NCBI GenBank assembly: GCA_039586035.1
Contig: JBDHLD010000014.1
Location: forward strand, 1 to 64,000
DNA: 64,000 bases
Direction of reading: 5' to 3'
From: Gemmatimonadota bacterium
Lineage (GTDB): Bacteria; Gemmatimonadota; Gemmatimonadetes; Longimicrobiales; Gaopeijiaceae
Shown here: one piece after another, positions 21,400 through 39,641 of the stretch
How the letters are laid out: every line of letters begins with the position of its first letter
How positions within the stretch are numbered: the stretch's first letter is position 1
Notes under the pieces: model-generated
What the model saw: only the letters and a program-made list of their open reading frames with translations
The model's database searches: none
Told to the model about the DNA's origin: nothing
Made by a program: the position numbers and the translations under genes

Positions 21400-24300
21400 C
21401 CTCGAGACGCACGCCGACGATGCTGCTCACTCCCGGCTCTTCCATCGTCACCCCGTAGATCCAGTCGGCCGCCTCGATGGTGCGCGGGTTGTGCGTAATG
21501 ACGACGAACTGGGTGCCCCGCTTGAACTCCTGAAGAAGCCGGATGAATCGGCCGATGTTGGCCTCGTCGAGGGGCGCGTCGACCTCGTCCAGCACACAGA
21601 ACGGACTGGGCTTCACCAGGTAGATGCCGAAGAGGAGGGAAAGGGCCGTCAGTGCCCGTTCGCCCCCCGACAGGAGATCGATCCGTTGGGTCCTCTTGCC
21701 CCGGGGCGAAGCGTGGATCTCCACCAGTGACTCCAGGGGATCGTCCTCGTCCGACAGCCAGAGGTCGGCTTCGCCGCCTTCGAACAGGCGTCGGAACGTG
21801 CTGACGAAGTTCTCCCGAATCTGGTGGAATGTGTCCAGGAAAAGGGTCGTGGCCGTCTCGTTGATCTGCTTGATGGCGGCCCTGAGGTCGTCGCGGGCGC
21901 TCACCAGGTCGAACTGTTGCTCCTTCAGGAACGAGAGCCGGGTGCTCTCCTCTTCGTGCTCCTCCATGGCGAGCATGTTCACCGGCCCGATCCGCTCCAG
22001 GGCCTGGACGATCTCCTTCAGCTCGGAGGACAGCGCTTCGGGATCACCTTCGATGGGCTCGGCCTCCTCCAGCAGGGTCTGGAGCGGCCTGCCCCACTCA
22101 CCCTCGAGCCGCTCCTGTATCCGCCCGATGTCTCCCAGGAGCTCCTGTCGCTCCAGCTCGAGCCGATGGCGCCGGTTCGTCGCCTCGCGCTCGGCACTCC
22201 GGGCGGCTCGCACCCGGCGCGCCTCCACGTCGAGCTCCTCCGCCACGTCCGCGACCGCCCGGTCGCGCTCCGCGAGCTGAGATTCGGCCTCGGTGCGAGA
22301 CCTGAAGAGCTCTTCGGTGGCGGTTTCGCCCTGCCTCCTCAGCTGACTCACCTCGGACAGCTCGGTCCGCAGGGCTGTTTCCTCACGGTCGAGCGCCTCG
22401 ACTCGATCCAGGGCGGACTGGCGCGCCTTGACCGCGTCCTCGTTCCGCTCGCGGGTGCGACCCAGCTCGCCCTCGAGGCGTGTGAGCTCCACCGTCAGTC
22501 TGGACTCTTCGGCCCGGGCGGTCTCCCACTCCTCCTCTACGGTCTCCAGCGCGGCCTGAGCCTTCTCGCGCTGGCCGTGCAGCGCTTCCTCCTCCGATGA
22601 CAGAACCCCCCGATCTTCCCGCGCGGTCTCGCCCCGCTCCAGAGCGCGGGCACGAGCCGCCCGGGTGCCCTCGAGCTGCCGCGCCAGCTCGTCCCGGTGT
22701 CGGTCCATTCGGTCCTTGCGGTCGTACTGGGCGGCGATCTCGGCCCCGGCCTGGCGATGGGCGTCCTCCGCGGTCCGCAGCTCGCCTCGAGCGTCTTCCA
22801 GGTTCGTCTCGGCGGCCCTCACGCGGACCTCGGCGTCCTCACGGTCCGCCCGCGCCTGATCCGCTGCGGCACGTGCGGCCGCCGCCCGGGGCTGGAGCTC
22901 TTCCAGACGGGCCCTGCGCTCCAACACGCCGCTGGCGCCCGTGGGGTTGCCCACACGCACGACGCCCAGCCGGTCCACCGAGGCCCCGGACGGGGCCAGG
23001 CGCAGGCCGTCGGCGTCGGTGAGCAGGCCATCCTCTTCCACCAGCTGCACGCCGCCGAGCAACGCCTCGACCCAGCGGCTGCCCGCCCCGGTCGACGTGA
23101 CACCGTCGGGCACCTTGCCTCCGGACTCCGGCGCGTTGTCCAGCGGCAACAGGATGAGGCCTCCACCGCCGTCCCACTCCTCCTTGAACCAGGTGGCCAC
23201 CCGGCCAGCCGCCTTTCGGTCCTTCACCACGATGCCCCGCAGCAAAGTCCCCAGATATGCCTCCACGGCCGCCGAGTGAGACGCCTCGACGTCGAGGAAG
23301 TCGGACAGCGTTCCCAGCACACCGGTGCCGCCTCCGTCGAGAGCCGCCTGAACCGCGGGCTCCACGCCTTCACGGTCTCGCGCCATGCGCTCCAGCGCCG
23401 CGGCCTCGGCCGACAACGATCCGGCGTGGTCGGCGGCCTCCAGCTCCCTGACCCGGAGGTCGTCGAGCGCCGACCGAGCCGAGGCGAGGGTACTCTCCGC
23501 GCCCGCGACCTTCGACCGGGCCACCTGCTCGTCGGTCGCGAGCTGCTCCAGGCGATCCGCAAACAGATCCCCTTGGGATTCCAGGTCCGAAAGGGCGTCG
23601 GCCGCCGCCTCCAGCTCGTCGTGGAGCCGCTCCAGACGCCGCCCCAGCTCGGCCGCCTGGGCTTCGGCTGCGTCGGCGTCGCCTTCGAGCTGCGCGCCCT
23701 TACGCGCCACCTCCCGCTCGCGCGCCTCCATGGACTGGACGTCGCCACGGGCGCTCTGAAGTCGTTGCCTCACCTCCCCCGTGGCCGCGCGGCTGGCCTC
23801 CAGCGACGCCCGCGCCTGACCCAGCTCCTCCTCCAGGTCCCGCCCCAGGCGGGAGAGGTTGCGGGTCTCGGACCCCAGCGCGTGGGCCCGATCCTGCGAC
23901 TGCTGGCGCTCCTCCAGGATCTGCGCCAATCGCCGCTCCGCGTAGGCCGCCCGCTCGTCCGCGACCGCCAGGTCCCGCTCCCAGCGGACGAGTTGGTTGC
24001 GCACGTCGTCGAGCCGCGCTGCGGACTCGGAGCGCTGCTTCTCGACGTCGATCTGGCGCAGCCGCAGGCTCTCGACCCGTGCCTCGGCGGCTCGCAGCTC
24101 CGCGAGCATGCCCTCGGCGGAGCCTTGCTCTCCGCCCAGGACGCCCTCTACCTCCACCAGCCGCTCCTGGAGCCCGGTGAGGCGGTGCCCCACGACGGCC
24201 ACCTCCACAGCCAGCCGGCGGGTTCGTAGCGAATGGTATCGCTGCGCCTTCCCCTTCTGGCGGGCGAGGGATCTGACCTTCGTCTCGACTTCCGCGATGA

Positions 24301-24880
24301 CGTCTTCCAGGCGTTGGAGATCCAGCTCCGCCCGCTCCAACCGCCTCGTCGCCGCCTTCCTTCGGTCCTTGTATTTGCCGATTCCGGCCGCCTCCTCGAA
24401 GAGGCCCCGGCGTTCATCGGCCCGGTCCGAGAGGATCGCGTCGATCATGCGGTTCTCGATGACCGCGTAGGCGTTGGCGCCCAGGCCGGTGTCACGGCAG
24501 AGCTCGACGACGTCCTTCAAGCGACAGTGGGAGCGGTTGATGGAGTACTCGCTGCCCCCGTCCCGGAACACGGTCCGACCGATCTCCACCTCCTCGAACG
24601 GGACCGGGAGCAGCCCGTCTTCGTTGCTGACCGTCATGACCACGGACCCGCGGTTCACGGGCCGACGGTTCACGGTCCCCTGGAAGATGGCTTCCTCCAT
24701 CTTGGCGCCCCTGATGGCGGTCGGGCGCTGCTCTCCCAGTACCCAGCGGATGGCGTCGCTGATGTTGGACTTGCCGCAACCGTTGGGGCCCACGATGGCG
24801 GTGATGCCCTCGTGGAAATCGATATCCGTGCGGTCTGCGAAGGACTTGAAGCCGTTGACCCTCAGGGAGCGGAGCTTCAT
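21368..24880 (-). CDS. smc: Chromosome segregation protein SMC
   Basis: 1170 aa; N-terminal Walker A (GPNGCGKSN), long coiled coils, a hinge, and a C-terminal signature/Walker B (LSGGERALTALSLLFGIYLVKPSPFCVLDEVDAPLD). Confidence 0.95.
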   Translation of the reverse strand: MKLRSLRVNGFKSFADRTDIDFHEGITAIVGPNGCGKSNISDAIRWVLGEQRPTAIRGAKMEEAIFQGTVNRRPVNRGSVVMTVSNEDGLLPVPFEEVEIGRTVFRDGGSEYSINRSHCRLKDVVELCRDTGLGANAYAVIENRMIDAILSDRADERRGLFEEAAGIGKYKDRRKAATRRLERAELDLQRLEDVIAEVETKVRSLARQKGKAQRYHSLRTRRLAVEVAVVGHRLTGLQERLVEVEGVLGGEQGSAEGMLAELRAAEARVESLRLRQIDVEKQRSESAARLDDVRNQLVRWERDLAVADERAAYAERRLAQILEERQQSQDRAHALGSETRNLSRLGRDLEEELGQARASLEASRAATGEVRQRLQSARGDVQSMEAREREVARKGAQLEGDADAAEAQAAELGRRLERLHDELEAAADALSDLESQGDLFADRLEQLATDEQVARSKVAGAESTLASARSALDDLRVRELEAADHAGSLSAEAAALERMARDREGVEPAVQAALDGGGTGVLGTLSDFLDVEASHSAAVEAYLGTLLRGIVVKDRKAAGRVATWFKEEWDGGGGLILLPLDNAPESGGKVPDGVTSTGAGSRWVEALLGGVQLVEEDGLLTDADGLRLAPSGASVDRLGVVRVGNPTGASGVLERRARLEELQPRAAAARAAADQARADREDAEVRVRAAETNLEDARGELRTAEDAHRQAGAEIAAQYDRKDRMDRHRDELARQLEGTRAARARALERGETAREDRGVLSSEEEALHGQREKAQAALETVEEEWETARAEESRLTVELTRLEGELGRTRERNEDAVKARQSALDRVEALDREETALRTELSEVSQLRRQGETATEELFRSRTEAESQLAERDRAVADVAEELDVEARRVRAARSAEREATNRRHRLELERQELLGDIGRIQERLEGEWGRPLQTLLEEAEPIEGDPEALSSELKEIVQALERIGPVNMLAMEEHEEESTRLSFLKEQQFDLVSARDDLRAAIKQINETATTLFLDTFHQIRENFVSTFRRLFEGGEADLWLSDEDDPLESLVEIHASPRGKRTQRIDLLSGGERALTALSLLFGIYLVKPSPFCVLDEVDAPLDEANIGRFIRLLQEFKRGTQFVVITHNPRTIEAADWIYGVTMEEPGVSSIVGVRLEDALQASGSAA

Positions 24881-26772
24881 CGGAGGGGGCGGCCCATCCG
24901 TTCGGTGAGGATCGCGCCAGTCAGGCCCGATTCGATCAGCAGGGTCTGCAGATGACTCGCCTCGCGGGCGTTGGCGTAGGCGCCGGCGTACACCCGGTAC
25001 CGCAGCGGACCCTCCGGCGGCCCGTATTCCGCGAAGTAGGCCGGGATCCCAGCGTCCTCGGCCTGGCCTCTGCGAGCCATGGCCTCGTCGAGCGAGTCGT
25101 ACTCGCCCAGGAGAAAGGCGACGCGGGTGGAACGGACGATGGCCCCCCTCGCGACGGCGGTGCCGATGTAGCCGGCCAACTCTGCGCGGATGGCCTCGGC
25201 GTGGCCTCTCGACTCGGCGGGGCCGGCCACGACCCGGTAGTAGTTGGCGCCCCCCACCTGTACGGGCACCAGCACGAACTGGAGCGACGGGAAGCGCGCC
25301 TGAAGGTCCCTCGACTGTTCCTGGGCGGCGGTTGCCCGCTCATGGGCGTTGATGGTGAGACCGAAGCGCATGATGGCGCTGGGCGACAGGGCGCCCGTGG
25401 CCGATGGCGTGCCTTCCTCCGTCGCGTCCTCTCTGGTCGCGGTGGGGACCCCGCCTTCATCGACGGGCGTGGGATCGTCGGGCTCGCCACCGGTGCCCCC
25501 GGGCACGGCGCCCTCTGAAGTCGTGGGCTCGCTCACTTCCGCCGCGTCGCCTGCGTCCGGCGTAGCTGCCGCCATGTCCGCGTCAGCCGACCGTGCCGCG
25601 GACAGCTCGACCGGTGCGTCGTCCGCGGGATCGCTACTCGAGACGGCTGGCGCGTCGCCCCGGCCCATCAGAGCGATGAGCGTCGCCACGACGATGACGA
25701 TCAATGCCAACCAGAGGAGGAGCCGCCGCCGAGAGCTAGGGGCCGGCTCCGATTCGATGGAAAGCAGGCCTTCGAACTCGGCGGACAGCTCTGTATCCGG
25801 GCCGCTGGGAGCCTCTGGCCCGGACGCTCCGGGTGCTCCCGCGGCTTCGTCGGCGAGCTCTTCGGCAGCGGTTTCGTCCCAAAACGGATCCAGCTCTGCC
25901 CCCGCGCTCCCACCGGCACCGGGCTCCTCCTCCCCCGTGGGGAGACCCTCGGCAAGGGGTCCGCTGGCGAACGCCGTGCCCTCGTCGACGGCAGGGAGTG
26001 CGCCGGCCGCCGGCCCCTCGGTCAGACTCGGGGCTCCGGGATCGTGGGTGGCCTCGAGGCTCTCGGCGAGACGGACCTCCAGGCTGGCGACGTCCGTGGC
26101 ATCGAGGTCCGCTCCGTCGCCTCCCAGATCCACCGCGGTGCCCGCCACCGATGCCGGGCTGGCCGCGCCAGCTTGCGCTACGTCCAGGGGAGAGACTACC
26201 GCATGCACCGGAGTGGACGACTCCACGAGCGCCTCGGTGGGCGCGGCAGCCCCGGCCAGAAGCACCACGGCGTCGGCACGTTCGAGCAAGGCGGTGGCAC
26301 CCTCGAGCGAAAGCGGTACGTGGAGGAGCACCAGCGTGCCCGACTTCCGGTAGCCGCCCAGGATGGTTTCCCAGCGAGGGTTCTCGAGGATCTTCGAGGA
26401 ATCTCCGACCACCGTGCCCGAAGGCACGAACAGGAAGGTGCCCTCGCGGACCCCCCGGGAGACACGGCGAGCGGAGGCTCCGAACTCGAAGACGTCGCTG
26501 ATGCCTTCGCCCGGCGTGACGCCGAGCTCGTTGGGGAGCCAGGAACCCTCCAGGCTCAGGTCGATCAGGACTGTGCGGGCGCCACGGCCGGCTGCCGCCT
26601 CGGCGACCCTCGCGGACACGCTGGCCGCCCAGGGGCCGTCTTCAGCCGTCGGAGCCACCGCCATGGCCAACACGCGAACGGGGCCGTCGCCGTCCAGCAG
26701 AGCCGAGATCGAATCCGGCACGTCGTCCGTATCCGGGTCGAAGGCCTGCCAGACGGGTGTCTCCAGTGTCAT
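24877..26772 (-). CDS. Hypothetical protein: degenerate ParA/MinD-like N-domain + low-complexity linker + TM helix + two C-terminal SPOR (septal peptidoglycan-binding) domains
   Basis: N-terminus (VRVLAMAVAP...RTVLIDLSLEGSWLP...LVLLHVP...ADAVVLLAG) has a MinD/ParA-like fold pattern but no Walker A GKS/T. TM segment LLLWLALIVIVVATLIALMG. Two SPOR-like repeats (QFVLVPVQVGGANYYRVVAGP...; YRVYAGAYANAREASHLQTLL). Its stop overlaps the smc start by 4 nt. Confidence 0.65.
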   Translation of the reverse strand: MTLETPVWQAFDPDTDDVPDSISALLDGDGPVRVLAMAVAPTAEDGPWAASVSARVAEAAAGRGARTVLIDLSLEGSWLPNELGVTPGEGISDVFEFGASARRVSRGVREGTFLFVPSGTVVGDSSKILENPRWETILGGYRKSGTLVLLHVPLSLEGATALLERADAVVLLAGAAAPTEALVESSTPVHAVVSPLDVAQAGAASPASVAGTAVDLGGDGADLDATDVASLEVRLAESLEATHDPGAPSLTEGPAAGALPAVDEGTAFASGPLAEGLPTGEEEPGAGGSAGAELDPFWDETAAEELADEAAGAPGASGPEAPSGPDTELSAEFEGLLSIESEPAPSSRRRLLLWLALIVIVVATLIALMGRGDAPAVSSSDPADDAPVELSAARSADADMAAATPDAGDAAEVSEPTTSEGAVPGGTGGEPDDPTPVDEGGVPTATREDATEEGTPSATGALSPSAIMRFGLTINAHERATAAQEQSRDLQARFPSLQFVLVPVQVGGANYYRVVAGPAESRGHAEAIRAELAGYIGTAVARGAIVRSTRVAFLLGEYDSLDEAMARRGQAEDAGIPAYFAEYGPPEGPLRYRVYAGAYANAREASHLQTLLIESGLTGAILTERMGRPLR

Positions 26773-26949
26773 TCGCGCGATCGGGAAGCTATGGCAAGCC
26801 GGCTCCGCAGGACCGGCTCGGGACCCCGTTGGCTGTTCGCCGGGGACCGCATGGAAACCTCGTCAACTTAACGTCCGCTGAAGCGGCCGGGCAATCCGGC
26901 GGGGCTCCATCGTTCGACGGCGGAGTGCGCCGCGAGCCGGCCGGGTCGC

Positions 26950-27321
26950 TCAGCCCTCGAACGCGACCCGCGGCGCGTCGCCCCACAGGTGCTCGAGTTG
27001 ATAGAACTCCCGCGCCGAAGCGTGGAAGATGTGTACCACGAAGTCGATGTAGTCCAGGAGCACCCAGGTTCCCCCGGCCTTCCCTTCGACGTGGTCTGGG
27101 CGGTGTCCCTCCTCGCGCAGGGTCTCCTCGATGTGCTCGGCGATGGAGCGGACCTGGATGTCCGAGGTCCCGGACCCGATCACGAAGTAGTCCGTGGCCG
27201 TGGAGATCCCCCGGAGGTCCAGTGCGACCACCTCCGATGCCTTCCGATCGAGAGCCAACTCCGCGACCTGACTGACCACTGGCGGCAGCTCGGGCTTGGC
27301 CCGTTCGGGGGCGTGCTGCAT
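26950..27321 (-). CDS. rsfS: Ribosome silencing factor RsfS (Iojap)
   Basis: 123 aa; ASEVVALDLRGISTATDYFVIGSGTSDIQVRSIAEHIEE...GTWVLLDYIDFVVHIF. Confidence 0.85.
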   Translation of the reverse strand: MQHAPERAKPELPPVVSQVAELALDRKASEVVALDLRGISTATDYFVIGSGTSDIQVRSIAEHIEETLREEGHRPDHVEGKAGGTWVLLDYIDFVVHIFHASAREFYQLEHLWGDAPRVAFEG

Positions 27322-27333
27322 AGCGGGCGCCGC

Positions 27334-27789
27334 CTACTCGGCGGCTCGCTCCACCCGGATCTCGATTTCCGCGTCGACTTCGGGTCCGAGACGGATCTTG
27401 ACCGGAAAGGCCCCGAGCTGTTTGATCGGCTCGTCGAGGAGGATCTTGCGCCGGTCCACCTCGAAGTCGAGGTCCTGCTCGCCGGCGCGGGCCGCGATGT
27501 CCGCCGCCGTGACGGACCCGAAGAGCTTGCCTTCCTCGCCGGCTTTGGCATGGAAGGTGAGGACGAGGCCAGCGAGCTGGGCCGCCCGCCTGCGAGCCTC
27601 CAGGTAGTCCCGCTTCGCCCGTTCTTCCGCCTGCTGCTTCTCCAGCTCGATTCGCTTGAGGTTGGCGTCGCTGGCCGCATACGCCAGTCCCTGCGGAAGA
27701 AGGTAGTTACGCGCGTAGCCCGGCTTGACGTTCACGATGTCGCCGGACGTGCCCAGGTTCTGCACGTCTTGCTTGAGGATGAGCTTCAT
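27334..27789 (-). CDS. rplI: 50S ribosomal protein L9
   Basis: MKLILKQDVQNLGTSGDIVNVKPGYARNYLLPQGLA; 151 aa. Confidence 0.9.
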   Translation of the reverse strand: MKLILKQDVQNLGTSGDIVNVKPGYARNYLLPQGLAYAASDANLKRIELEKQQAEERAKRDYLEARRRAAQLAGLVLTFHAKAGEEGKLFGSVTAADIAARAGEQDLDFEVDRRKILLDEPIKQLGAFPVKIRLGPEVDAEIEIRVERAAE

Positions 27790-27811: not shown

Positions 27812-28750
27812 TCATGGCTGGCCCTCCGCCTGCGGCGTGCTCCGCGAGCGCAGATCGAGCCATGTATCTCCGATCCCGATGACCATTGCGGCCATGAGCA
27901 CGATTGGCGCCACGAAGAGCAACCCGAACAGGAACACGATCATTCCGAGGAGGTTCAGCCCGCCATAGAGAAATAGCACGACGGCCGCGCCGCGGAGCGC
28001 GTATAGCGCGCCCATGAACACGAGGGCGTTGGTCCCCGCATCGGACCACGCCGGGCTCGAACCGAGGAGCACGGCGCCCAACCCCGCGATCACCACCCAC
28101 ATCAATTGATCGTTGAAGCGGAAGTCCCGCAGGGGGCCGACCCCCTGGTCGCTTCCGCGTGCTAGCCGCACATACAGCCACCAGGCCACGCCCAACGCCG
28201 ACAGCGAGGTGAGGCCGAGGAACGCCGGGAAGACCGCGCCCTGGATGTCCGCGGTCTGATATGCTGCGTTGACCAGCGTCTCCGACATCTCTCCGTCGCC
28301 CTGCATCAGCCGCAACGCCTCCAGGGCCGAGCCGAGCCCCTGGCGAATGCGTGACTCCACCAGCCAGCGGACCACCGTCCACTCTCCGGGCCGCACCGCG
28401 AGTATCGTGGCCGTGACTGCCAGGGCTCCGGCGAGCGCGCCGAGGGCCCTGCTCGAGAAGCCGCTTCCAGGCCAACGCAACGTCAAAGCGACGAACCAGC
28501 CTCCCAGCAACAGGGCCCAACCCCGCTCGATGAACCACAAGCCAGGGTGACCCGACCCTCGGAACACCAGGTAGCCGACCGCACTCGCCAGGAGCAGGGC
28601 CACCAACCGGTGGGGCGGCAGGATCAGCGCCAGAAGAAGGAACGGGACGGCGACGAGGACACCGGGCTGCAAGACCGAGAAGCCCGCCGTGAAAGCCAGG
28701 AGCGCCGCTGCCCGAAGCCACCCTCGACTCTCTCGGTGGCCGGCTCGCAT
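27812..28750 (-). CDS. DUF2232/YybS-like integral membrane protein
   Basis: A polytopic membrane protein in the conserved rpsR-(yybS)-rplI neighbourhood known from Firmicutes. Confidence 0.65.
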   Translation of the reverse strand: MRAGHRESRGWLRAAALLAFTAGFSVLQPGVLVAVPFLLLALILPPHRLVALLLASAVGYLVFRGSGHPGLWFIERGWALLLGGWFVALTLRWPGSGFSSRALGALAGALAVTATILAVRPGEWTVVRWLVESRIRQGLGSALEALRLMQGDGEMSETLVNAAYQTADIQGAVFPAFLGLTSLSALGVAWWLYVRLARGSDQGVGPLRDFRFNDQLMWVVIAGLGAVLLGSSPAWSDAGTNALVFMGALYALRGAAVVLFLYGGLNLLGMIVFLFGLLFVAPIVLMAAMVIGIGDTWLDLRSRSTPQAEGQP

Positions 28751-28756
28751 GTCGCC

Positions 28757-29410
28757 TCAGACCTCGTGGTCCCGGACATACGGGACAAGAGCCAGATATC
28801 GGGCACGCTTGATCGCCCGTCCGAGCTGACGCTGGAAGCGGGCCGTCACCTTCGTCGTCCGTTTCGGCAGGATCTTCCCCTGCTCTGTCATGAACCGCGA
28901 CAGCGTCGCCACGTCCTTGTAGTTCAGGAGCTCGATGGCAGGGCCCTCGATGCGCCGGCGCCGGCCGCGACCTCCGCTGAATTCGGGCGGAGCCGACCTG
29001 TGGGTCACGGCCGGGGCCTCCCCGTCGCCGTCACTCGTGTCGTCCTCGGCATCGCCTTCGCCCTCGTCGGCCTCCCGCACCCGCGTGTTGGGCTTCTGGA
29101 GGGACATGCCCTGCGTAGGCTCGCCTTCATTGAGCACCACCAAGTAGCGCATGATCTGCTCGTTCAGGCCGACGCGACGCTCGAACTCCGGCAACGCCTC
29201 GGGGTCCGTCCGAACCTGAGCGACCACGTAATAGCCGATCTTCTTCTTTTCGATCGGGTACGCGAGCTGCCGGGCCCCCCAGTGGTCCACGGCGACGATC
29301 TCGGCGCCGTCGACCTGGGTGAGCAGGTCGTGGTGCTGCTCCAGATGGAGGTTGACGCCGGCCTCGTCCAAGGCGGCGTCGAAGATGTAGACGATCTCGT
29401 AGAGACGCAT
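28757..29410 (-). CDS. Fused 30S ribosomal proteins S6 (N-terminal ~100 aa) and S18 (C-terminal ~75 aa) joined by an acidic linker
   Basis: The N-terminus [14 protein letters not shown]...[20 protein letters not shown]... is S6. The C-terminus [62 protein letters not shown] is S18. It is one continuous 217-codon frame with no stop between the two parts and no ssb/priB gene between them. Confidence 0.8.
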
Positions 29411-29850
29411 GATACGACTCTCCCTCGGTCCGTCGTGAAAACGCGGGCCCCGCCTCTATGGACGGAGCGGGATGAGCCTGTAAAGATATCGCTCCGCACG
29501 CCCTCGGTGGAAGGGGTAAGGGGCGCGGTCTACGCAGGGTCACGCGTGCGGCGACCGACCCCGTGCGTTCCGGACCCCACGCGCCGGCCGAACGGGCCCG
29601 GCACCGGGCAAGGCACCGCCGGGCGGCCTTGCGCCCTGGACGCGTCGAGCGGACAATCCACTTGGTGTCATCCGGGTTGCCCCGGGGACCGAGCAGAGCC
29701 GGTCGTGCCTCCTCCCCGCCCGTGCCCTCCACGGCAGCCCGTAGAAGGCGACGCCGTTTAGATCCGTATGCAGGGTACATCCAAGAACGGAGCCGGAGGA
29801 CGCGGGCCTGGGCCCGGGTTCCCCAGCTCCCCCGCGCCGGACGCTTCGCG

Positions 29851-30447
29851 ATGGCCGTAGCCTATGTCTTCGCCCTGGTGTTGGGCGGTGGATTCATGGC
29901 CCTCTCCCTCCTCGGCGACGTGGCGGGAGGCGGCGACGTGGCCGACGTCGATCTGGACGTGGATTTCGACGTCGACGCCGACGCGGGTGGAGGCAGCGAC
30001 GTCAACGCGTTCAAGATCCTTTCGCTGCGGACGCTGGTGTACGCCTTGTTCGGGTTCGGAGCCGTCGGGACCATCCTCAGCCAGCTGTGGGGAGGAGCGC
30101 GGGAGCCCCAAACGGCCCTCTTCGCCACGGCAGGTGGTGTCGCCACCGGTTTCATCGCGTCGGCGCTGTTCGGGTTCCTGAAGCGGTCGGAGGTCGGAGA
30201 CCGGGCCGGAGACACCAGCTTCGTAGGACTCCCGGGCGTCGTCAGCCTGCCCATGGGGTCCGGTTCTCCCGGGCAGGTGACCGTGCTGCGCGGCGACCGG
30301 AGCTACCGCATTCGGGCGCTGCCCCATGACACCGCGGGGCATCTGGACCCGCAGGCGTGGAAAGAAGTGCTCGTGGTGGAGATGGAAGGGGGCATCGCCC
30401 GCGTGGTTCCGGTGGATGAGGAGCTCCGCCTCCCGGACGGCGGCTGA
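29851..30447 (+). CDS. NfeD-like membrane protein (YuaF/YqiJ-like; C-terminal OB-fold) with acidic DV-repeat segment
   Basis: Two TM helices, then (DVDLDVDFDVDAD), two more TM helices, and a C-terminal beta-barrel (GQVTVLRGDRSYRIRALPHD...VLVVEMEGGIARVVPV) typical of NfeD partners of SPFH proteins. It lies directly upstream of the flotillin gene. The track ORF start at 29563 is an Arg-rich artefact; the ATG is at 29851. Confidence 0.65.
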   Translation: MAVAYVFALVLGGGFMALSLLGDVAGGGDVADVDLDVDFDVDADAGGGSDVNAFKILSLRTLVYALFGFGAVGTILSQLWGGAREPQTALFATAGGVATGFIASALFGFLKRSEVGDRAGDTSFVGLPGVVSLPMGSGSPGQVTVLRGDRSYRIRALPHDTAGHLDPQAWKEVLVVEMEGGIARVVPVDEELRLPDGG

Positions 30448-30534
30448 CGCGCCCGACCAGGAGCGGAACCGGTGCTTGGTGACGTGGAGCCGATGTCAAT
30501 CGACCGGTAACTGATCGCATTCGATTCGGAGGAT

Positions 30535-31884
30535 ATGATGGACCAGATGCTCGCAGGTGGGGCCGCAATCGGCTTTGCCGTTCTCTTCGCCGTGTTCGTC
30601 GCGATCCTGACGATCAAGTCGCTCATTATCATCGTCCCACCCAACGAGGCGGCCGTCATCACGGGGCGGAGCCGGAGCCTGCCGGACGGCCAGAAGGTCG
30701 GCTACCGCTCGATGATCGGTGGAAGAACGCTGCGCATCCCCATCATCGAAGCCGTCGAGTGGGTCAGTCTCGAGACGATTCCCATCGAGGTGGGTGTCAG
30801 CAACGCCTTCTCGAAGGGGAACATCCCTCTGACCGTCGAGGCCATCGCCAACGTCAAGATCGCCTCCGAGCCCGAGACGGTGTTCAACAACGCAGTGGAG
30901 CGACTCCTCGGGAAGTCGGAGCAGGAGGTCAAGCTCCTGGCCAAGGACACGCTGATGGGGAACCTCCGGGGCGTGTTGGCCACCTTGACGCCCGAGGAGG
31001 TGAACGAGGACCGACTCGGCTTCGCCAAGGCGCTGGCCGAAGATGCCGGCGAGGACCTGGCGGCCCTGGGGTTCCACCTGGACGTGCTGAAGATCCAGAA
31101 CGTGAGCGACGAGCGGGGCTACCTCGAGGCCATCGGTCGGAAGCGCGCGGCCGAGGCCGTGCGGGACGCCGAGATCGCCGAGGCTGACGCGGACGCAGAG
31201 ACGCGGGAGCGGCAGGCCGAAGCGAAGCAGCGGGCCGAGGTCAAGGAAGCCGAGGCCGACATCCGGATCGCCGAGGCGAAGAACGCCCTGCGTGTGCGGG
31301 AGGCGGAGCTCGACCAGGAGGCCCAGATCGCGGAGCGCACGGCGCAGGTGAGGGCAGAGCAGGCAGAGGTGGAGGCCCAGAAGGTGCTGGAGGAGCGGCG
31401 AGTCGAGAAGGAACAGGAACGGCTTCGGGCCGACGTCGTGGAGCCCGCCAACGCGGCCCGGGAGGCGGCCTTTGCGGAGGCCCAGGCCGAGGCGGCACCG
31501 ATCCTGGAGCGCGGCAAGGCCCAGGTCCAGGTGCTCCGCCGTCTCTACGAAGAGGTGCAGAAGGGAGGCGAGCATGGGTTCGCCGTGTTCCTGGCGGAGA
31601 AGCTCCCGGAGCTCCTCGGGATCGCGGTCGGCGCCGTGAAGGACGTGGACATCGACCGCCTGGTGGTCCTCGACGGGGGCACCGGCAGCGGGGCTAGCAA
31701 CGCGGTCAACCAGAAGATCCAAGGCGCCTACGGGACCATGGAGGGGCTGGCATCGGCGCTGGGCATCGATATCCAGGCCGTCCTCGAGGGAGCGACCGCC
31801 CGTGTCGCCCAGCTCCCGGCCGAAAGCGACGGAAACGGAGCGCCGAGCCCGCAGATCGCGCGACCGAGCGGCGAGACCCTCTGA
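30535..31884 (+). CDS. Flotillin-family SPFH/band-7 protein (FloT/YqiK-like)
   Basis: N-terminal TM helix, SPFH domain, then a long A/E-rich flotillin coiled-coil region (AEADADAETRERQAEAKQRAEVKEAEADIRIAEAK...). Confidence 0.85.
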   Translation: MMDQMLAGGAAIGFAVLFAVFVAILTIKSLIIIVPPNEAAVITGRSRSLPDGQKVGYRSMIGGRTLRIPIIEAVEWVSLETIPIEVGVSNAFSKGNIPLTVEAIANVKIASEPETVFNNAVERLLGKSEQEVKLLAKDTLMGNLRGVLATLTPEEVNEDRLGFAKALAEDAGEDLAALGFHLDVLKIQNVSDERGYLEAIGRKRAAEAVRDAEIAEADADAETRERQAEAKQRAEVKEAEADIRIAEAKNALRVREAELDQEAQIAERTAQVRAEQAEVEAQKVLEERRVEKEQERLRADVVEPANAAREAAFAEAQAEAAPILERGKAQVQVLRRLYEEVQKGGEHGFAVFLAEKLPELLGIAVGAVKDVDIDRLVVLDGGTGSGASNAVNQKIQGAYGTMEGLASALGIDIQAVLEGATARVAQLPAESDGNGAPSPQIARPSGETL

Positions 31885-33213: not shown

Positions 33214-35334
33214 CTAACCGAGGAAGCGGGTCACCAGATCGGTGATCCACGAGGTGGCGTCCAAGTCCAGCCCGTGGATCCTCACGAACCACGGTGCCAA
33301 CACCAGGGCCACCACGCTCATGAGCTTGATCAGGATGTTCAGGGACGGACCGGAAGTGTCCTTGAACGGATCACCCACCGTGTCTCCGACGACGGCCGCC
33401 TTGTGGGGATCCGACCCTTTGCCTCCCATGGCCCCCCCCTCGATGTACTTCTTGGCGTTGTCCCAAGCGCCCCCGGCGTTGGCCATGAACAGGGCCATGA
33501 GCACGCCCGTCACGGTGGCCCCGGCGAGGAGGCCGCCCAGGGCCTCGACGCCCAAGAACGCGCCCACCAGCACGGGAGCCAGGACGGCCGTCACCCCGGG
33601 CAGGATCATCTCTCGCAAGGCCGCCCGGGTGGAGATGTCCACGCATCGCGCCGAGTCGGGCTTGGCCGTGCCCTCCATCAGCCCCGGTATCTCCCGGAAC
33701 TGGCGCCTCACCTCCTCCACCATCCCGGCGGCGGCACGGCCAACTGCGGTCATGGTCAGGGCGGCGACGAAGAACGGCAGCATGCCGCCCAGGAGCAGTC
33801 CGACGACCACGGTGGGGTCCACGATGCTGATCCCCGTATCCAGCAGCCCCACCGCCGAGGCGTAGGCCGAGAAGAGCGCCAACGCCGTGAGCGCCGCCGA
33901 ACCGATGGCGAAGCCCTTGCCGATGGCCGCCGTTGTGTTGCCGATCGCGTCCAGCGAGTCGGTGATGGCGCGGGTCTCGGGTCCGAGACCGCTCATCTCG
34001 CTGATGCCCCCGGCGTTGTCGGCCACCGGTCCGTAGGCGTCCACCGACATGGTCACGCCGACGGTGGCCAGCATGCCCACGGCCGCGATGCCGATTCCGT
34101 ACAGGCCGGCGAAGAAGTGCGACACGCCGATGGCCGTGGCGATGAGGATCACTGGCACTGCAGTGGATTCCATTCCGACCGCCAGGCCGGTGATGATGTT
34201 CGTCGCGGCGCCCGTGCGGCTCGCCTCGGCGATGCGCCGGACGGGACCTGCCGCCGTGTAGTACTCGGTGGCCAAGCCGATCAGGATGCCCGTCAGGGTT
34301 CCCGACAGCAGCGCCCAGAAAGGCCCGGCGGACGGGTACGCGCTTCCCGACGCGTCCAACATCCGGAAGCCCATGGAGTCGATGATGAAGTACATCGCCA
34401 CGAGGAACAGCCCGGCGGCGATGAAAGTGACGTTGCGCAGCGCCCCGGCCGGATCGGTCCGCTCCAGGACCTTCATCATTCCGATCCCCACCAGGGAGGC
34501 CACCAGCCCCACCATCACCGCGACGACCGGCAGGGCCACCGCCTCGATCCGGTTCGAGGCCAACGCGGTAGCCGAGGCCCCGATGGCGATGGTGGCCACG
34601 ATGGAGCCGACGTACGACTCGAAGATGTCGGCACCCATGCCCGCCACGTCACCCACGTTGTCGCCCACGTTGTCGGCGATGGTGGCCGGATTCCGCGGGT
34701 CGTCCTCCGGGATGCCGGCCTCGACCTTGCCGACCAGGTCGGCGCCGACGTCCGCCGCCTTGGTGTAGATCCCGCCACCGACGCGGGCGAACAGGGCGAT
34801 GGAGCTGGCGCCCATGGCGAAGCCCGACACGATCTCGGCGAACCTGGGAAGGTCACCGGTGCCCGGAATGGCGTCGGCCGCGTAGATCCAGTACAGGACC
34901 CCGAGCCCCAGCAGCCCCAACGACGCCACGGCCAGGCCCATGACGCCGCCGCCGAAGAAGGCAATGCGCAAGGCCTTGCCTTGGCCTTCCTGGTTGGCGG
35001 CGGCCGACGTGCGCACGTTCGCGCGCGTCGCGGCCTTCATCCCGAAGAAGCCCGCCGAGACCGAGCAAAGGGCGCCGAACAGATACGCGATGGCGGTCTG
35101 GGGTGAGATGGCAAGGCCCAGCAGCACCGCGACCACCGCGACGAAGACCGCCAGCACGGTATATTCGCGCCGGAGAAACGCCATGGCACCGTCGTGGATC
35201 TGATTGGCCAGATCGACCATGACGTCAGTCCCGGGATCCTGCTTCTTGACATAGCCGTAGGTGAATCCGGCCGTGCCCAGACCGATCAGGCCCAACAGCC
35301 AGGCCCAATCCGTCAGCGTCACGAAGTCGGTCAT
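33214..35334 (-). CDS. hppA: Membrane-bound H+/Na+-translocating pyrophosphatase
   Basis: 706 aa polytopic protein with V-PPase signatures ([57 protein letters not shown]). Confidence 0.9.
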
Positions 35335-35385
35335 TCAGCGACCCTTTCTCGGTTCCTCATTGTCGTGTGGAGGCGGCTCGGTCGG

Positions 35386-35949
35386 TCACCGGTTGTACCG
35401 GTTCATCGCCGCCTCGATTCCCTCTGCGATCCACGTTTCCACGGCGCGGGTCAGCTCCGGAAGGAGCCTCACCACGACCTCTTCATCCGACTCGGTCATG
35501 GGCGAAAGGACCCAGGCCGCCAGGTCCGCCCCGGCGGGCGCCACGCCCACCCCCACCCGCAGGCGGGGGTAGTCATCGGTGCCCAGGGTGCTGGACACCG
35601 ACCTCAGCCCGTTGTGTCCGCCGGCTCCTCCTCGGGGACGCAAACGGACCCGCCCGACGTCCAGGGCCGCGTCGTCGACGACGACCAACAGGTCGCGAGC
35701 GGGCTCGAAGCCAGGCACCGTGGAGAGGGGGGCCAGGGCCCACCCACTCCGGTTCATGTATGCGGTGGGCTTGATCAGCCGAACGTCGTGGTCGTTCACG
35801 GTGCCGTCGACGGCGACGGCGAAGCCCCGCTGCCGGAAGGCACCGAAATCCCAGTCGTACGCCAGCCGATCCAGCACCCACCACCCGACGTTGTGCCGGG
35901 TTTCGTCGTACTCGGACCCGGGGTTCCCGAGGCCGGCGACGACCTTCAT
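35386..35949 (-). CDS. pth: Peptidyl-tRNA hydrolase
   Basis: MKVVAGLGNPGSEYDETRHNVG... GHNGLRS motif; 187 aa. Confidence 0.9.
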   Translation of the reverse strand: MKVVAGLGNPGSEYDETRHNVGWWVLDRLAYDWDFGAFRQRGFAVAVDGTVNDHDVRLIKPTAYMNRSGWALAPLSTVPGFEPARDLLVVVDDAALDVGRVRLRPRGGAGGHNGLRSVSSTLGTDDYPRLRVGVGVAPAGADLAAWVLSPMTESDEEVVVRLLPELTRAVETWIAEGIEAAMNRYNR

Positions 35950-35976
35950 GCGAAGTGGCGTCGAGTGGGAAGTGGC

Positions 35977-36654
35977 CTAGCCCTCTGCCTCTTCGCCCTC
36001 TCCTTCTGCCTCTGCAGCCTCGCCCGTGACGGCCTCGGCAGCCTCTGCCGCCTCGCCTTCGAGCTCCTCTTCCTCCACGACTTCCTCTTCGGCCCTCGGC
36101 GCCGCGACGGCGGCCAGGGTCCGCTCCGGGTCCATGAGCAACTCGATGCCCTCGCCGATCTCCAGGTCGTAGGCGTGGATGGAGTCACCCACGTTCAGCC
36201 CCGTCACGTCCACCGTGATGGCCTCGGGGATATTGGAGGGGAGGCACTTGATGGGAATCACGTGGAAGACCTGCTCCAGCGTGCCACCGTTGCGCACGCC
36301 CTCGGGCGTGCCCTCCAGCTCCAGCGGGACCTCGACTTCCACGGCCACGCCCTTCTGGATCCGGTAGAAGTCGATATGGATGAGCTCGGGTCGGTACGGA
36401 TGAGTCTGGACCTCCCGGACCAGCGTCGGCAAAGGCCTCCGCTCGCCCTCGATCTTCAGATCGACGATGGTGCTCGCCACCGAGATCCCCTGGAAAAGGT
36501 GCTCCGCCTCGTGGGCGTCAACCGCCAGGGAGACCGCCTCCATGTCCTTGCCGTATACGACGGCCGGCACCTGACCCGCGGTCCGCAGCTTGCGCGCGAC
36601 GCCCTTGCCGGTGCCTTCGCGCTTGGTCGCGCTCAACGTTGCATTCTCGCTCAT
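35977..36654 (-). CDS. rplY: 50S ribosomal protein L25 / general stress protein Ctc (long form with acidic tail)
   Basis: ATKREGTGKGVARKLRTAGQVPAVVYG...; C-terminal Glu/Ala-rich tail; prs-ctc-pth gene order. Confidence 0.85.
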   Translation of the reverse strand: MSENATLSATKREGTGKGVARKLRTAGQVPAVVYGKDMEAVSLAVDAHEAEHLFQGISVASTIVDLKIEGERRPLPTLVREVQTHPYRPELIHIDFYRIQKGVAVEVEVPLELEGTPEGVRNGGTLEQVFHVIPIKCLPSNIPEAITVDVTGLNVGDSIHAYDLEIGEGIELLMDPERTLAAVAAPRAEEEVVEEEELEGEAAEAAEAVTGEAAEAEGEGEEAEG

Positions 36655-36664
36655 GACGCTCGTC

Positions 36665-37642
36665 CTACGACTGGTGAGTGGGCTCGAGGGTCTCCGACCC
36701 GTGGCTCGTCCCGTGAGGCCGGATTTCGAAGAGCTCGCTCACGGACTCGTTCGAGTGGGTGTTGACGATGGCATCCGCCAGAAGGCCTGCCACCGAGAGG
36801 ATCCGCAGCCTGTCAAAGCGCCGCTCCTCGGGCACGTGGATGCTGTTGGTGACCACGAGCTCCTCCAACGGCGCGGCGGAGAGCTTTTCGGCCGCCGTCC
36901 CCGAGAGGAGGGCGTGCGTGCCGCAGGCGTAGACCTTGGTGGCGCCCCGTTCCTTGAGTGCATGCACCGCGTTCGCCATGGTGCCGCCCGTGTCCACCAT
37001 GTCGTCGGTGATCAGGCAGGGGCGCCCCTCCACCTCACCGACCACGTTGAGCACCTGAGCCACGTTGGCGCGCGGCCGACGCTTGTCGATGATGGCCAGC
37101 GACGCCCCCAACCGCTTCGCGTAGCCCCGGGCCATCTTGGCGGACCCCACGTCCGGCGCCACCACGACCAGATCCTCGAGCTCGAGGCTGCGGAAGTAGT
37201 CGATCAGGACGGGACGGCCATAGAGGTGGTCGACCGGGATGTCGAAGAAGCTGGCGATCTGGTGCTGGTGGAAGTCGATCCCCAAGACGCGATCCGCACC
37301 CGCCGCCTCGATGAGGTTCGCCACCAGCTTCGCCCCAACGGACACGCGTGGCTGGTCCTTCCGGTCCTGACGACCGTAGCCGAAGTAGGGGATCACCGCC
37401 GTGACGCGAGCCGCCGAGGCCCGCATCGCCGCGTCGATCAGGAGCAACAGCTCCATGAGGTTCTCGGCAGGGGCCGGCGTGGGCTGGATGATGAAGACGT
37501 CCCGTCCACGGACGTTCTCGTCGATCCTGACGAAGATCTCGCCGTCGGCGAAGTCCTCGATCGTGACGCCCAAGGTCGTCTGGCCGATCCGATCTCCGAT
37601 CTCCATGGCCAGCGAACGATTGGCCCGCCCGGCCAGGAGCAT
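36665..37642 (-). CDS. prs: Ribose-phosphate pyrophosphokinase (PRPP synthetase)
   Basis: MLLAGRANRSLAMEIGDRIG..., PRPP-binding loop (VVAPDVGSAKMARGYA) and DxxDTGGT (ITDDMVDTGGT). The track start at 37693 is probably extended; an ATG at 37642 gives the canonical N-terminus. Confidence 0.9.
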   Translation of the reverse strand: MLLAGRANRSLAMEIGDRIGQTTLGVTIEDFADGEIFVRIDENVRGRDVFIIQPTPAPAENLMELLLLIDAAMRASAARVTAVIPYFGYGRQDRKDQPRVSVGAKLVANLIEAAGADRVLGIDFHQHQIASFFDIPVDHLYGRPVLIDYFRSLELEDLVVVAPDVGSAKMARGYAKRLGASLAIIDKRRPRANVAQVLNVVGEVEGRPCLITDDMVDTGGTMANAVHALKERGATKVYACGTHALLSGTAAEKLSAAPLEELVVTNSIHVPEERRFDRLRILSVAGLLADAIVNTHSNESVSELFEIRPHGTSHGSETLEPTHQS

Positions 37643-37756
37643 CAGCGGGCCTCTTTGGAAGGTGTAGTCCATATTCCTGGAGGTCGGATCCAATGATAGT
37701 TGCGACAGCCCGCTAAGTTAGAGACGGGTCCAGGTGCCGTCAACGTGGAAGCGGCG

Positions 37757-39550: not shown

Positions 39551-39569
39551 GTACTCCTTTCCTGCGAAA

Positions 39570-39641
39570 TTGCCCCCCCAGGACTCGAACCTGGACCAAG
39601 GGTTCCAAAGACCCTTGTGCTGCCGTTACACCAGGGGGCAG
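39570..39641 (-). tRNA. tRNA-Gln (anticodon UUG)
   Basis: Minus strand UGCCCCCUGGUGUAACGGCAGCACAAGGGUCUUUGGAACCCUUGGUCCAGGUUCGAGUCCUGGGGGGCA. D-arm GUGU/GCAC with a GG loop. Anticodon stem AGGGU/ACCCU with loop CUUUGGA. T-arm CCAGG-UUCGAGU-CCUGG. My hand fold of the acceptor stem is one G short of perfect, so boundaries are +/-2 nt. Confidence 0.75.

What the first reader, a model, noticed from the sequence alone, without database searches (positions are those of the whole stretch)
28757..29410. In-frame fusion of ribosomal proteins S6 and S18 in a single 217-codon gene
rpsF and rpsR are almost universally separate genes, often with ssb or priB between them. Here a canonical S6 domain, its acidic tail, and a complete S18 domain are one uninterrupted reading frame, and no ssb/priB gene is present. 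S6 and S18 form an obligate heterodimer before binding 16S rRNA. A covalent fusion would hard-wire that step and remove any S6:S18 stoichiometric feedback. If genuine, this is a rare ribosomal-protein gene fusion.
Basis: seen in the sequence. Interest (0 to 1): 0.65.

Follow-up and report, generated by a model that had tools for sequence, protein, structure and literature searches.

The report
Natural single-chain ribosomal protein S6–S18
Two ribosomal proteins that normally pair up before joining the ribosome (S6 and S18) are here encoded as one conserved gene, a real but evolutionarily simple fusion that has arisen several times in bacteria and apparently keeps its own feedback control.

Summary
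Window 28757-29410 (minus strand) is one 217-codon ORF with a full S6 domain (aa 1-95), an acidic disordered linker, a conserved basic junction motif ([13 protein letters not shown]) and an S18 core. It is not an assembly error. All 120 listed database homologues and 25 of 80 Gemmatimonadota genome loci, some on multi-megabase contigs or chromosomes, carry the same uninterrupted ORF. Linker length varies (45-113 aa) but always stays in frame, and dN/dS is below 1 in all three regions.

All fused genes except one form a single clade. Its sister clade has separate rpsF and rpsR whose stop and start abut or overlap (TAG-ATG, TGATG, ATGA), so the fusion is most simply explained by stop loss in a translationally coupled pair. 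No Gemmatimonadota locus has ssb or priB between the two genes.

Two additions:
- Fused S18 domains have lost all four Zn ligands (CxxC...CxxH), which 53 of 54 unfused relatives keep.

Other S6-S18 fusions exist (a gammaproteobacterial family and scattered others). I found no paper describing them. The finding is real, of moderate interest, and a new variant of a known kind.

The parts
28757..29410 (-). rpsF~rpsR fused CDS, 217 codons plus stop (stop codon 28757-28759)
   Evidence: conserved as one ORF in 25 genome loci and all 120 listed database clusters
29126..29410 (-). bS6 domain (aa 1-95)
   Evidence: Pfam/NCBIfam; AF2 pLDDT about 85; Foldseek TM 0.89 to solved bS6 chains; dN/dS 0.07-0.20
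28991..29125 (-). Acidic, disordered linker (aa 96-140). It begins with the conserved NEGEPTxGxS motif and derives from the acidic S6 C-terminal tail.
   Evidence: pLDDT 30-45. Across 25 fused genes, measured from the S6 domain to the RRRR run: 45-113 aa, 0 in-frame stops in 1455 codons against 94 in the +2 frame, rich in E/D/G/P. dN/dS 0.08-0.46.
28952..28990 (-). Conserved basic junction motif [13 protein letters not shown] (aa 141-153). The RGRRRR part corresponds to the N-terminus of free S18.
   Evidence: 12 of its 13 residues are invariant in a 50-sequence alignment; alignments
28760..28951 (-). bS18 core (aa 154-217), Zn-free (C-) type. RNA-reading K201/R204 are conserved.
   Evidence: dN/dS 0-0.07
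29418..29472 (-). 5' leader with S6S18CBM/rpsF_leader architecture. P1 pairs UCCC (29469-29472) with GGGA of the SD (29420-29424 is GGGAG). P2 hairpin arms are 29461-29468 and 29447-29454. An extra hairpin lies at 29430-29447. The bulged CCG is at 29426-29428.
   Evidence: compared with PMC3854524 and PMC3895269
29483..29488 (-). Candidate -10 box (TATCTT; TATATT in most relatives) just upstream of the leader
   Evidence: Conserved position in the alignment. The generic promoter scan found nothing, so this is tentative.
27812..28750 (-). DUF2232 membrane protein, 6 nt downstream of the fused gene
   Evidence: an S18-to-L9 spacing of about 920-1140 nt in 72 of 76 loci suggests it is conserved
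27334..27789 (-). rplI (bL9)
26950..27321 (-). rsfS (ribosomal silencing factor), same strand, 12 nt after rplI

Best explanation
The gene encodes a single-chain bS6-bS18.

Ancestral state (shown). In Gemmatimonadota rpsF and rpsR were adjacent and translationally coupled. The rpsF stop abuts or overlaps the rpsR start, and the GAGGAGGA codons of the acidic S6 tail look like the rpsR Shine-Dalgarno.

Origin (inferred). In one clade, to which the window's organism belongs, the stop was lost. The S6 acidic tail then became a flexible 45-113-aa linker to the basic N-terminus of S18.

Maintenance (shown). The ORF has since been kept by selection. The junction was remodelled into a conserved [13 protein letters not shown] motif, and the S18 N-terminal Zn knuckle (CxxC...CxxH) was lost.

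Function (inferred).
- The polypeptide is incorporated into the 30S platform as a covalently tethered version of the S6:S18 heterodimer. This makes the dimerisation step intramolecular and fixes 1:1 stoichiometry.
- The tether may compensate for the loss of Zn stabilisation of S18.
- Free fusion protein still represses its own translation by binding the CCR-bulge leader that overlaps the SD, as the S6:S18 dimer does in E. coli.
For: - ORF and domains.
- Independent recurrence: 120 of 120 listed homologues are two-domain. 25 of 80 genome loci are uninterrupted, several on multi-megabase contigs or chromosomes.
- Selection on the frame: linker length varies (45-113 aa) with 0 in-frame stops, against 94 in the +2 frame. 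dN/dS is below 1 in S6, linker and S18.
- Single origin: all fused genes except L031 form one clade on the S6-domain tree, and the main group is also one clade on the independent L9 tree. The sister clade has TAG-ATG, TGATG and ATGA junctions.
- Structure: folded S6 and S18 domains with a disordered linker.
- No conserved internal start: the -10 position holds ATG or GTG in 16 of 25 genes, mostly without an SD, and Ile in the window.
- Leader: 96.7% of cells paired, 6 pairs with compensatory changes, 0 of 500 shuffles reach this. CCR lies 0-2 nt before the SD in 78 of 81 loci, and the S18 K/R pair is conserved in 81 of 81. This matches the published motif definition (PMC3854524, PMC3895269, PMC4647458).
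- Zn ligands: present in 53 of 54 split S18s and absent in every fused one.
Against: - There are no protein-level data, so cleavage of the product or additional internal initiation cannot be excluded.
- The rest of the genome could not be searched for stand-alone rpsF or rpsR paralogues.
- Rfam found no leader family at E<=5, so the leader assignment rests on architecture and covariation only.
- The P1 stem hardly varies, so covariation says little for or against it.
- The link between Zn-ligand loss and fusion is a correlation from few independent events. L079 is Cys-depleted but unfused.
- The AF2 model gives no usable information on how the two domains dock (pTM 0.54).
Confidence: 0.75

Rival explanations
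1. Assembly or sequencing artefact: a lost stop or an indel joined two separate genes in this assembly only.
For: Such artefacts do occur. L033 shows a 1-nt homopolymer change at this very locus (in the opposite direction, splitting a fused gene). Some database 'fusions' are frameshift junk (P0243, P0220).
Against: The same uninterrupted ORF is found in 25 genome loci at 58-88% identity. All 120 listed database clusters are two-domain, from NCBI, JGI, ENA and Logan. Linker indels are always in frame. The junction motif is conserved.
Confidence: 0.01
2. Polyprotein: the fusion is translated as one chain, then cleaved in the linker to give ordinary free S6 and S18. The fusion would then only guarantee equimolar synthesis.
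For: The linker is disordered and accessible. The two motifs flanking the variable spacer (NEGEPTxGxS and PPEFSGGRG) are more conserved than a passive tether needs to be and could be processing sites.
Against: No protease or processing signal is identifiable. Unfused relatives already achieve near-equimolar synthesis by translational coupling, so cleavage would add nothing. The linker is under purifying selection along its length. There is no precedent known to me for processed bacterial r-protein polyproteins.
Confidence: 0.12
3. Dual expression: besides the fusion, an internal in-frame start yields free S18, so the cell has both forms.
For: ATG or GTG sits 10 codons before YKD in 16 of 25 fused genes. 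The window and L001 have a GTG 29 codons before YKD that is preceded by GGGGAGG. GA-rich acidic codons create SD-like strings. The gammaproteobacterial fusions retain the ancestral S18 Met in frame.
Against: No candidate start is conserved across the clade. The window lacks the -10 start (Ile). The -10 ATG is preceded by CGN Arg codons, in most genes without an SD. Several genes have no candidate start at all in this region (for example L009).
Confidence: 0.12
4. Decaying or redundant copy: functional stand-alone rpsF and rpsR lie elsewhere in the genome and the fused gene is dispensable.
For: Only 64 kb of the genome is visible. S18 paralogues exist in some phyla (PMC5912738).
Against: Purifying selection is strong on both domains (dN/dS 0-0.2). 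The operon position, leader and SD are conserved. There is no second copy in the window or in any 8-kb locus.
Confidence: 0.04

Closest known systems
bS6:bS18 heterodimer of bacterial 30S subunits (e.g. T. thermophilus S15-S6-S18-rRNA complex 1G1X; E. coli)
   Same: Same two folds and the same RNA-reading residues (S18 K/R pair, here K201/R204). The S6 domain superposes on solved bS6 at TM 0.89.
   Different: Here the two are one polypeptide joined by a 45-aa acidic linker and a 13-aa basic junction motif. All PDB hits shown (best 60 of 116) are stand-alone S6 or S18 chains of 135 residues or fewer.
Translationally coupled rpsF-rpsR of unfused Gemmatimonadota (sister clade L024, L026, L027, L050, L051 and others)
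   Same: Same operon (rpsF, rpsR, DUF2232-sized gap, rplI), same leader, same acidic S6 tail, no ssb or priB.
   Different: The sister clade has a stop codon directly before or overlapping the rpsR ATG, and its S18 is the Zn-binding C+ form. In the fused clade the stop, the start and all four Zn ligands are gone.
S6S18CBM / rpsF_leader autoregulatory RNA (Matelska 2013 PMC3854524; Fu 2014 PMC3895269; Babina 2015 PMC4647458)
   Same: It lies immediately 5' of rpsF. The basal stem sequesters the SD, the hairpin is variable and covarying, and the 3' bulge carries CCR just upstream of the SD.
   Different: It would be bound by a single-chain protein rather than a dimer. The fused clade has an extra small hairpin in the bulge. 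There is no Rfam hit and binding is untested.
Zn-binding (C+) versus Zn-free (C-) S18 forms, e.g. mycobacterial S18-1/S18-2 (PMC5912738)
   Same: The fused S18 has lost the CxxC/CxxH ligands, as the alternative Zn-independent S18s have.
   Different: This looks like replacement of the only visible copy in a whole clade, coupled to fusion with S6, rather than a Zur-regulated paralogue.
Other S6-S18 fusions in public data (gammaproteobacterial-type family P0166, P0276-P0295, P0316; scattered alpha- and Bacteroidota-type singletons)
   Same: Same domain order S6 then S18 and an unstructured spacer. They are annotated only as 'S6' or 'S18'.
   Different: Independent origins with unrelated linkers. 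The five gammaproteobacterial members I read (P0279, P0287, P0288, P0290, P0295) keep an S18-type N-terminus with an in-frame Met (a read-through type). Their clusters are small (1-3 members where checked), whereas the Gemmatimonadota junction is remodelled and the clade is large.

Membership tests
bS6 (Ribosomal_S6, PF01250 / TIGR00166) | Profile match above the curated cut-off | tested here: met
   82.5 bits against 27 (Pfam); 76.3 bits against 42.9 (TIGR00166)
bS6 (Ribosomal_S6, PF01250 / TIGR00166) | beta-alpha-beta-beta-alpha-beta S6 fold | tested here: met
   AF2 secondary structure E-H-E-E-H-E, pLDDT about 85. Foldseek TM 0.89, rmsd 2.0-2.1 A to bS6 chains.
bS18 (Ribosomal_S18, PF01084 / TIGR00165) | Profile match above the curated cut-off | tested here: met
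   73.7 bits against 21 (Pfam); 78 bits against 38.75 (TIGR00165)
bS18 (Ribosomal_S18, PF01084 / TIGR00165) | [quoted passage not shown] | tested here: met
   IKRAR at aa 200-204. The K-x-x-R motif is present in 81 of 81 sequences. Definition from PMC3854524.
Zn-binding (C+) S18 subtype | CxxC in the N-terminal segment plus CxxH in the core | tested here: not met
   Both motifs are absent in the window and in all fused genes, and present in 53 of 54 unfused relatives
S6S18CBM / rpsF_leader | Located immediately upstream of the rpsF start, with the SD in the 3' strand of the basal stem | tested here: met
   UCCC:GGGA stem, 99% of cells paired in 30 sequences but almost invariant. The SD GGGAG ends 9 nt before the ATG.
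S6S18CBM / rpsF_leader | Hairpin supported by correlated substitutions | tested here: met
   8-bp hairpin; 5 of its pairs have changes on both sides. For the whole structure, 0 of 500 shuffles reach the observed covariation, and slid controls are far lower.
S6S18CBM / rpsF_leader | Unpaired CCR 2-3 nt upstream of the SD | tested here: met
   CC[AG] lies 0-2 nt before the SD core in 78 of 81 leaders. The window has CCG-A-GGGAG. The spacing is slightly shorter than published.
S6S18CBM / rpsF_leader | Match to a curated covariance model | tested here: not met
   No Rfam family matched at E<=5 in 28400-30000 or at gathering score in the whole window. I do not know whether Rfam 15 holds a model of this motif.
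S6S18CBM / rpsF_leader | Specific binding by S6:S18 and repression of rpsF translation | not testable with these tools
   Needs EMSA or filter binding and a reporter assay with the fusion protein
Gene fusion of interacting partners ('Rosetta stone') | The partners are separate genes in most genomes, interact physically, and are joined in frame in some genomes under selection | tested here: met
   55 of 80 Gemmatimonadota loci are not one ORF (54 split plus frameshifted L033). Fused clades are maintained. The interaction is established (PMC3854524, PMC4647458).
Single polypeptide present in mature ribosomes | Intact ~24.6-kDa chain in the 30S subunit | not testable with these tools
   No proteomic or structural data are available

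The most novel reading that the evidence does not exclude
The fusion is not a neutral stop-loss. It is an adaptive, Zn-sparing redesign of the 30S platform. On this reading, covalent tethering to S6 replaced the Zn knuckle that stabilises the S18 N-terminus. Fusion and loss of all four ligands coincide in the main clade and also in the separately placed Gemmatimonadota-like fusions L031/P0138, P0128 and P0136. The newly invented, nearly invariant [13 protein letters not shown] segment would be a functional element contacting rRNA, or the 16S 3' tail / mRNA exit region next to bS6, bS18 and bS21. The single chain would act as its own translational repressor.
Probability: 0.15. Interest if true: 0.65.

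Novelty: new variant of a known kind. Interest (0 to 1): 0.45.

Why it matters
S6 and S18 are the textbook case of two ribosomal proteins that must pair before binding 16S rRNA, and whose complex (neither protein alone) represses its own mRNA.

A natural, clade-wide single-chain version matters in four ways:
1. It is a clean evolutionary 'Rosetta stone' for that interaction.
2. It provides a ready-made reagent for assembly and autoregulation studies, with no need to co-express and reconstitute the dimer.
3. It shows step by step how translational coupling can turn into fusion. The intermediate junctions TAG-ATG, TGATG and ATGA are all visible in sister genomes.
4. It raises a testable link between tethering and loss of Zn dependence in S18.

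On the practical side, these genes are annotated only as 'S6' or only as 'S18' in public databases. That can distort single-copy marker counts and ribosomal-protein phylogenies for Gemmatimonadota.

Tried and rejected
- **Rfam scans** gave only chance miRNA-like hits and one tRNA. The leader had to be defined by comparative analysis instead.
- **Generic sigma-70 scan** found no promoter. Three overlapping terminator-like hits at 27975-27994 lie inside the DUF2232 ORF and were ignored.
- **Single-sequence MFE of the window leader** (z = -2.0) differs in its inner part from the covariation-supported consensus, so I relied on the alignment.
- **Automated anti-SD search with constrained folding** was noisy because it often picked distant partners. 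I used it only as illustration.
- **L9 NJ tree** placed fused L013 and L046 outside the main clade. The S6-domain tree and the junction motifs shared with the main clade place them basal within it, so I treat the L9 placement as noise from a 150-aa marker.
- **L033 as a reversion to split genes**: rejected, because it is a 1-nt loss in a C5 run.
- **Literature**: no paper describing an S6-S18 fusion. PMC10817156 was irrelevant, and the r-protein phylogenomics paper PMC3353972 does not mention fusions.
- **The listing of cluster members** gave no organism names for the non-Gemmatimonadota fusions.
- **Domain docking**: the fold search could only confirm the S6 fold, so the S6/S18 arrangement in the model could not be assessed.

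Full report
**1. Observation**

The window holds one ORF at 28757..29410 on the minus strand (ATG start, 217 aa). Its domain content is:
- Pfam places Ribosomal_S6 at aa 4-92 and Ribosomal_S18 at aa 162-208.
- NCBIfam equivalogs for S6 and S18 both pass their cut-offs.

Codon-position GC is typical of real genes in this 69% GC window (GC3 0.87, GC2 0.40). The calculated mass is 24.6 kDa. The window has no second S6 or S18 copy and no ssb or priB homologue.

**2. Artefact or real?**

A homology search returned 1810 hits.
- All 120 best hits are two-domain proteins of 209-258 aa at 61-99% identity.
- They come from NCBI, JGI, ENA and Logan, and the named ones are Gemmatimonadota.

In 80 Gemmatimonadota genome loci, I walked the reading frames.
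- 25 loci (L001-L023, L031, L046) have one uninterrupted ORF. Several lie on multi-megabase contigs or chromosomes.
- L033 looks split but is a fused-type gene with one C missing from a C5 run.

Across the 25 fused genes analysed (the window plus 24 loci; L031 left out), three results point to selection.
- The linker varies from 45 to 113 aa but is always in frame.
- It has 0 stops in 1455 codons, against 7 in the +1 frame and 94 in the +2 frame.
- dN/dS between close pairs is 0.07-0.20 for S6, 0-0.07 for S18 and 0.08-0.46 for the linker.

The whole ORF is therefore under purifying selection, and an assembly error is excluded.

**3. How it arose**

The other 54 loci have separate rpsF and rpsR, never with a gene between them.
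- The stop and start overlap (ATGA, TGATG or TAATG), abut in frame (TAG-ATG or TAA-ATG in L024, L026 and L027), or lie 37-99 nt apart in one subclade.
- The rpsR Shine-Dalgarno appears to be formed by the GAGGAGGA codons of the acidic S6 tail.

Translational coupling is therefore ancestral in this phylum, and so is the absence of ssb/priB.

Two trees bear on the number of origins.
- On an S6-domain tree, every fused gene except L031 forms one clade, sister to the 'abutting' split clade.
- An independent L9 tree recovers the main clade and the same sister group.

The simplest path is loss of the stop in a coupled pair, which is a single point mutation from the TAG-ATG state. L031 has a diverged fused relative (P0138), and P0128 and P0136 are further Gemmatimonadota-like fusions. 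Fusion has therefore happened more than once even within this phylum.

**4. Anatomy**

The protein has five segments.

| Segment | Residues | Notes |
|---|---|---|
| S6 domain | 1-95 | Folded |
| NEGEPTxGxS motif | from about 94 | Conserved; straddles the end of the S6 domain and the start of the linker |
| Acidic spacer | to 140 | Rich in E, D, G and P; variable length |
| [13 protein letters not shown] | 141-153 | Nearly invariant (12 of 13 residues) |
| S18 core | 154-217 | Zn-free type |

The AlphaFold model has three regions of differing confidence.
- The S6 domain is confident (pLDDT about 85). Foldseek gives TM 0.89 to solved bS6.
- The linker is disordered (pLDDT 30-45).
- The S18 core is moderately confident (pLDDT 67-77).

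In the PDB, all 60 hits shown are stand-alone S6 or S18 chains.

**5. Loss of the Zn site**

- Unfused relatives carry CxxC...CxxH in S18 in 53 of 54 loci. This is the Zn-binding C+ form described for S18 (PMC5912738).
- Every fused S18, including the separately placed L031, lacks all four ligands.
- The fused P0128, P0136 and P0138 were likewise classed as Cys-free.
- L079 is Cys-depleted but unfused, so Zn loss does not require fusion.

That fused genes are always Zn-free is a correlation from a few independent events. It suggests, but does not prove, that tethering substitutes for the Zn knuckle.

**6. Feedback**

Upstream of rpsF, both fused and split lineages share a leader with three parts.
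- A basal stem pairs UCCC with the GGGA of the SD.
- An 8-bp hairpin has 5 pairs with compensatory changes.
- A 3' bulge carries CCR 0-2 nt before the SD, in 78 of 81 loci.

For the whole structure, 96.7% of cells are paired and 0 of 500 shuffles reach the observed covariation. Slid controls fall to 44-64% paired.

This is the published definition of the S6:S18-binding motif, which is read by S18 K60/R63 (PMC3854524, PMC3895269) and represses rpsF translation in E. coli (PMC4647458). Those residues are K201/R204 here and are conserved in 81 of 81 sequences. Rfam did not detect the leader.

**7. Alternatives**

- **Internal initiation.** A start codon 10 codons before YKD occurs in 16 of 25 fused genes, mostly without an SD, and not in the window. 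The window and L001 have a GTG with a GGGGAGG upstream at -29, but it is not conserved. Dual expression cannot be excluded but is not a conserved feature.
- **Post-translational cleavage.** This also remains possible, because the conserved flanking motifs are unexplained.
- **Redundant copy.** Unlikely given the level of constraint, but whole genomes could not be scanned.

**8. Wider distribution and novelty**

An exhaustive phmmer search of 1.84 billion representatives, classified with my own S6 and S18 HMMs, shows that 48 of the top 150 carry both domains. About 35 look full length, and their signatures are very diverse.

One group is a gammaproteobacterial family.
- It has 22 clusters of 189-244 aa, on contigs up to 553 kb.
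- One cluster is named 'Gammaproteobacteria bacterium'.
- One is filed in UniRef under Glossina pallidipes.
- One member sits in an rnr-rlmB-rpsF~R context without priB.
- The members I read still hold an S18-type N-terminus with an in-frame Met.

A few database 'fusions' are frameshift junk (P0243, P0220). S6-S18 fusion is therefore uncommon but recurrent.

I found no paper describing it. Databases label the proteins simply 'S6' or 'S18'.

**9. Verdict**

This is a real, selected, clade-wide single-chain S6-S18. It arose by a simple route from a translationally coupled gene pair, and it shows two non-trivial correlates: loss of the Zn site and an invented conserved junction motif. The autoregulatory leader is retained. 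It is a new variant of a known kind, of moderate interest (0.45).

Noticed in passing
window 27812-28750 (-), between the fused gene and rplI: A DUF2232 membrane protein sits between rpsR and rplI. An S18-to-L9 gap of about 920-1140 nt in 72 of 76 Gemmatimonadota loci suggests it is conserved phylum-wide. L013, L046 and L011 lack or shorten it. From memory, Bacillus has a similar yybS-gdpP-rplI arrangement.
   Followed up: partly
window 21368-27321 (-): Directly downstream on the same strand are rsfS (ribosomal silencing factor), a SPOR-domain protein and smc. Gaps are 12 nt (rplI to rsfS) and 177 nt (rsfS to the SPOR ORF), and the SPOR ORF overlaps smc by 4 nt. This may be one long translation and chromosome-maintenance operon.
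   Followed up: partly
L033:4480-4500: A fused-type gene is interrupted by a 1-nt shortening of a C5 run relative to L009 and L016. It is a homopolymer sequencing error or a very recent frameshift in that MAG.
   Followed up: yes
L031:1548-2119; proteins P0138, P0128, P0136: Further Gemmatimonadota-like S6-S18 fusions (173-199 aa) with a short, different linker and no PPEF motif. They are placed among or near unfused Gemmatimonadales and are also Zn-ligand-free.
   Followed up: partly
L081:4001-4702; proteins P0166, P0276-P0295, P0316: A gammaproteobacterial-type family of S6-S18 fusions without priB. The members I read retain an S18-type N-terminus with an in-frame Met. One member (P0295) is filed in UniRef as mitochondrial bS6m of the tsetse fly Glossina pallidipes and is probably of bacterial (symbiont or contaminant) origin.
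   Followed up: partly
L079 (uncultured Gemmatimonas sp.), around 3900-4581: This unfused locus has an S18 that lost part of the Cys ligands (CPITE...GVDARHQR). Its upstream region shows neither the conserved leader nor the CCR-SD arrangement.
   Followed up: no
L025, L028-L030, L036-L049, L052, L058, L060 (leader regions): In the subclade with a 37-99-nt rpsF-rpsR spacer, the rpsF leader carries an additional conserved GC-rich hairpin (GGCUCGAGCC...CGAGCC) inside the bulge. The fused clade has a different small hairpin (CCGU...ACGG) at that place.
   Followed up: partly
window 29563-31884 (+): Divergently transcribed from the fused gene are a 294-aa ORF with no Pfam hit (hydrophobic stretches; the true start is probably near 29850) and then an SPFH/Band-7 protein. 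I suspect an NfeD-like/flotillin pair, but that was not tested.
   Followed up: no
window 28547-29761 (+) and other long ORFs overlapping the locus: Several long antisense or out-of-frame ORFs (up to 404 aa) overlap the fused gene. They are the usual stop-poor shadows of a 69% GC genome, not genes, and they fail the GC3/GC2 filter used.
   Followed up: yes
window 33214-39640 (-): An H+-pyrophosphatase, the prs - rplY(ctc/L25) - pth cluster, and one tRNA at 39570-39640.
   Followed up: no
proteins P0243, P0220, P0230: Some database 'S6-S18' representatives are clearly frameshifted or read-through translations, with low-complexity out-of-frame stretches between the domains. Counts of fusions taken from raw protein catalogues are therefore inflated.
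   Followed up: partly
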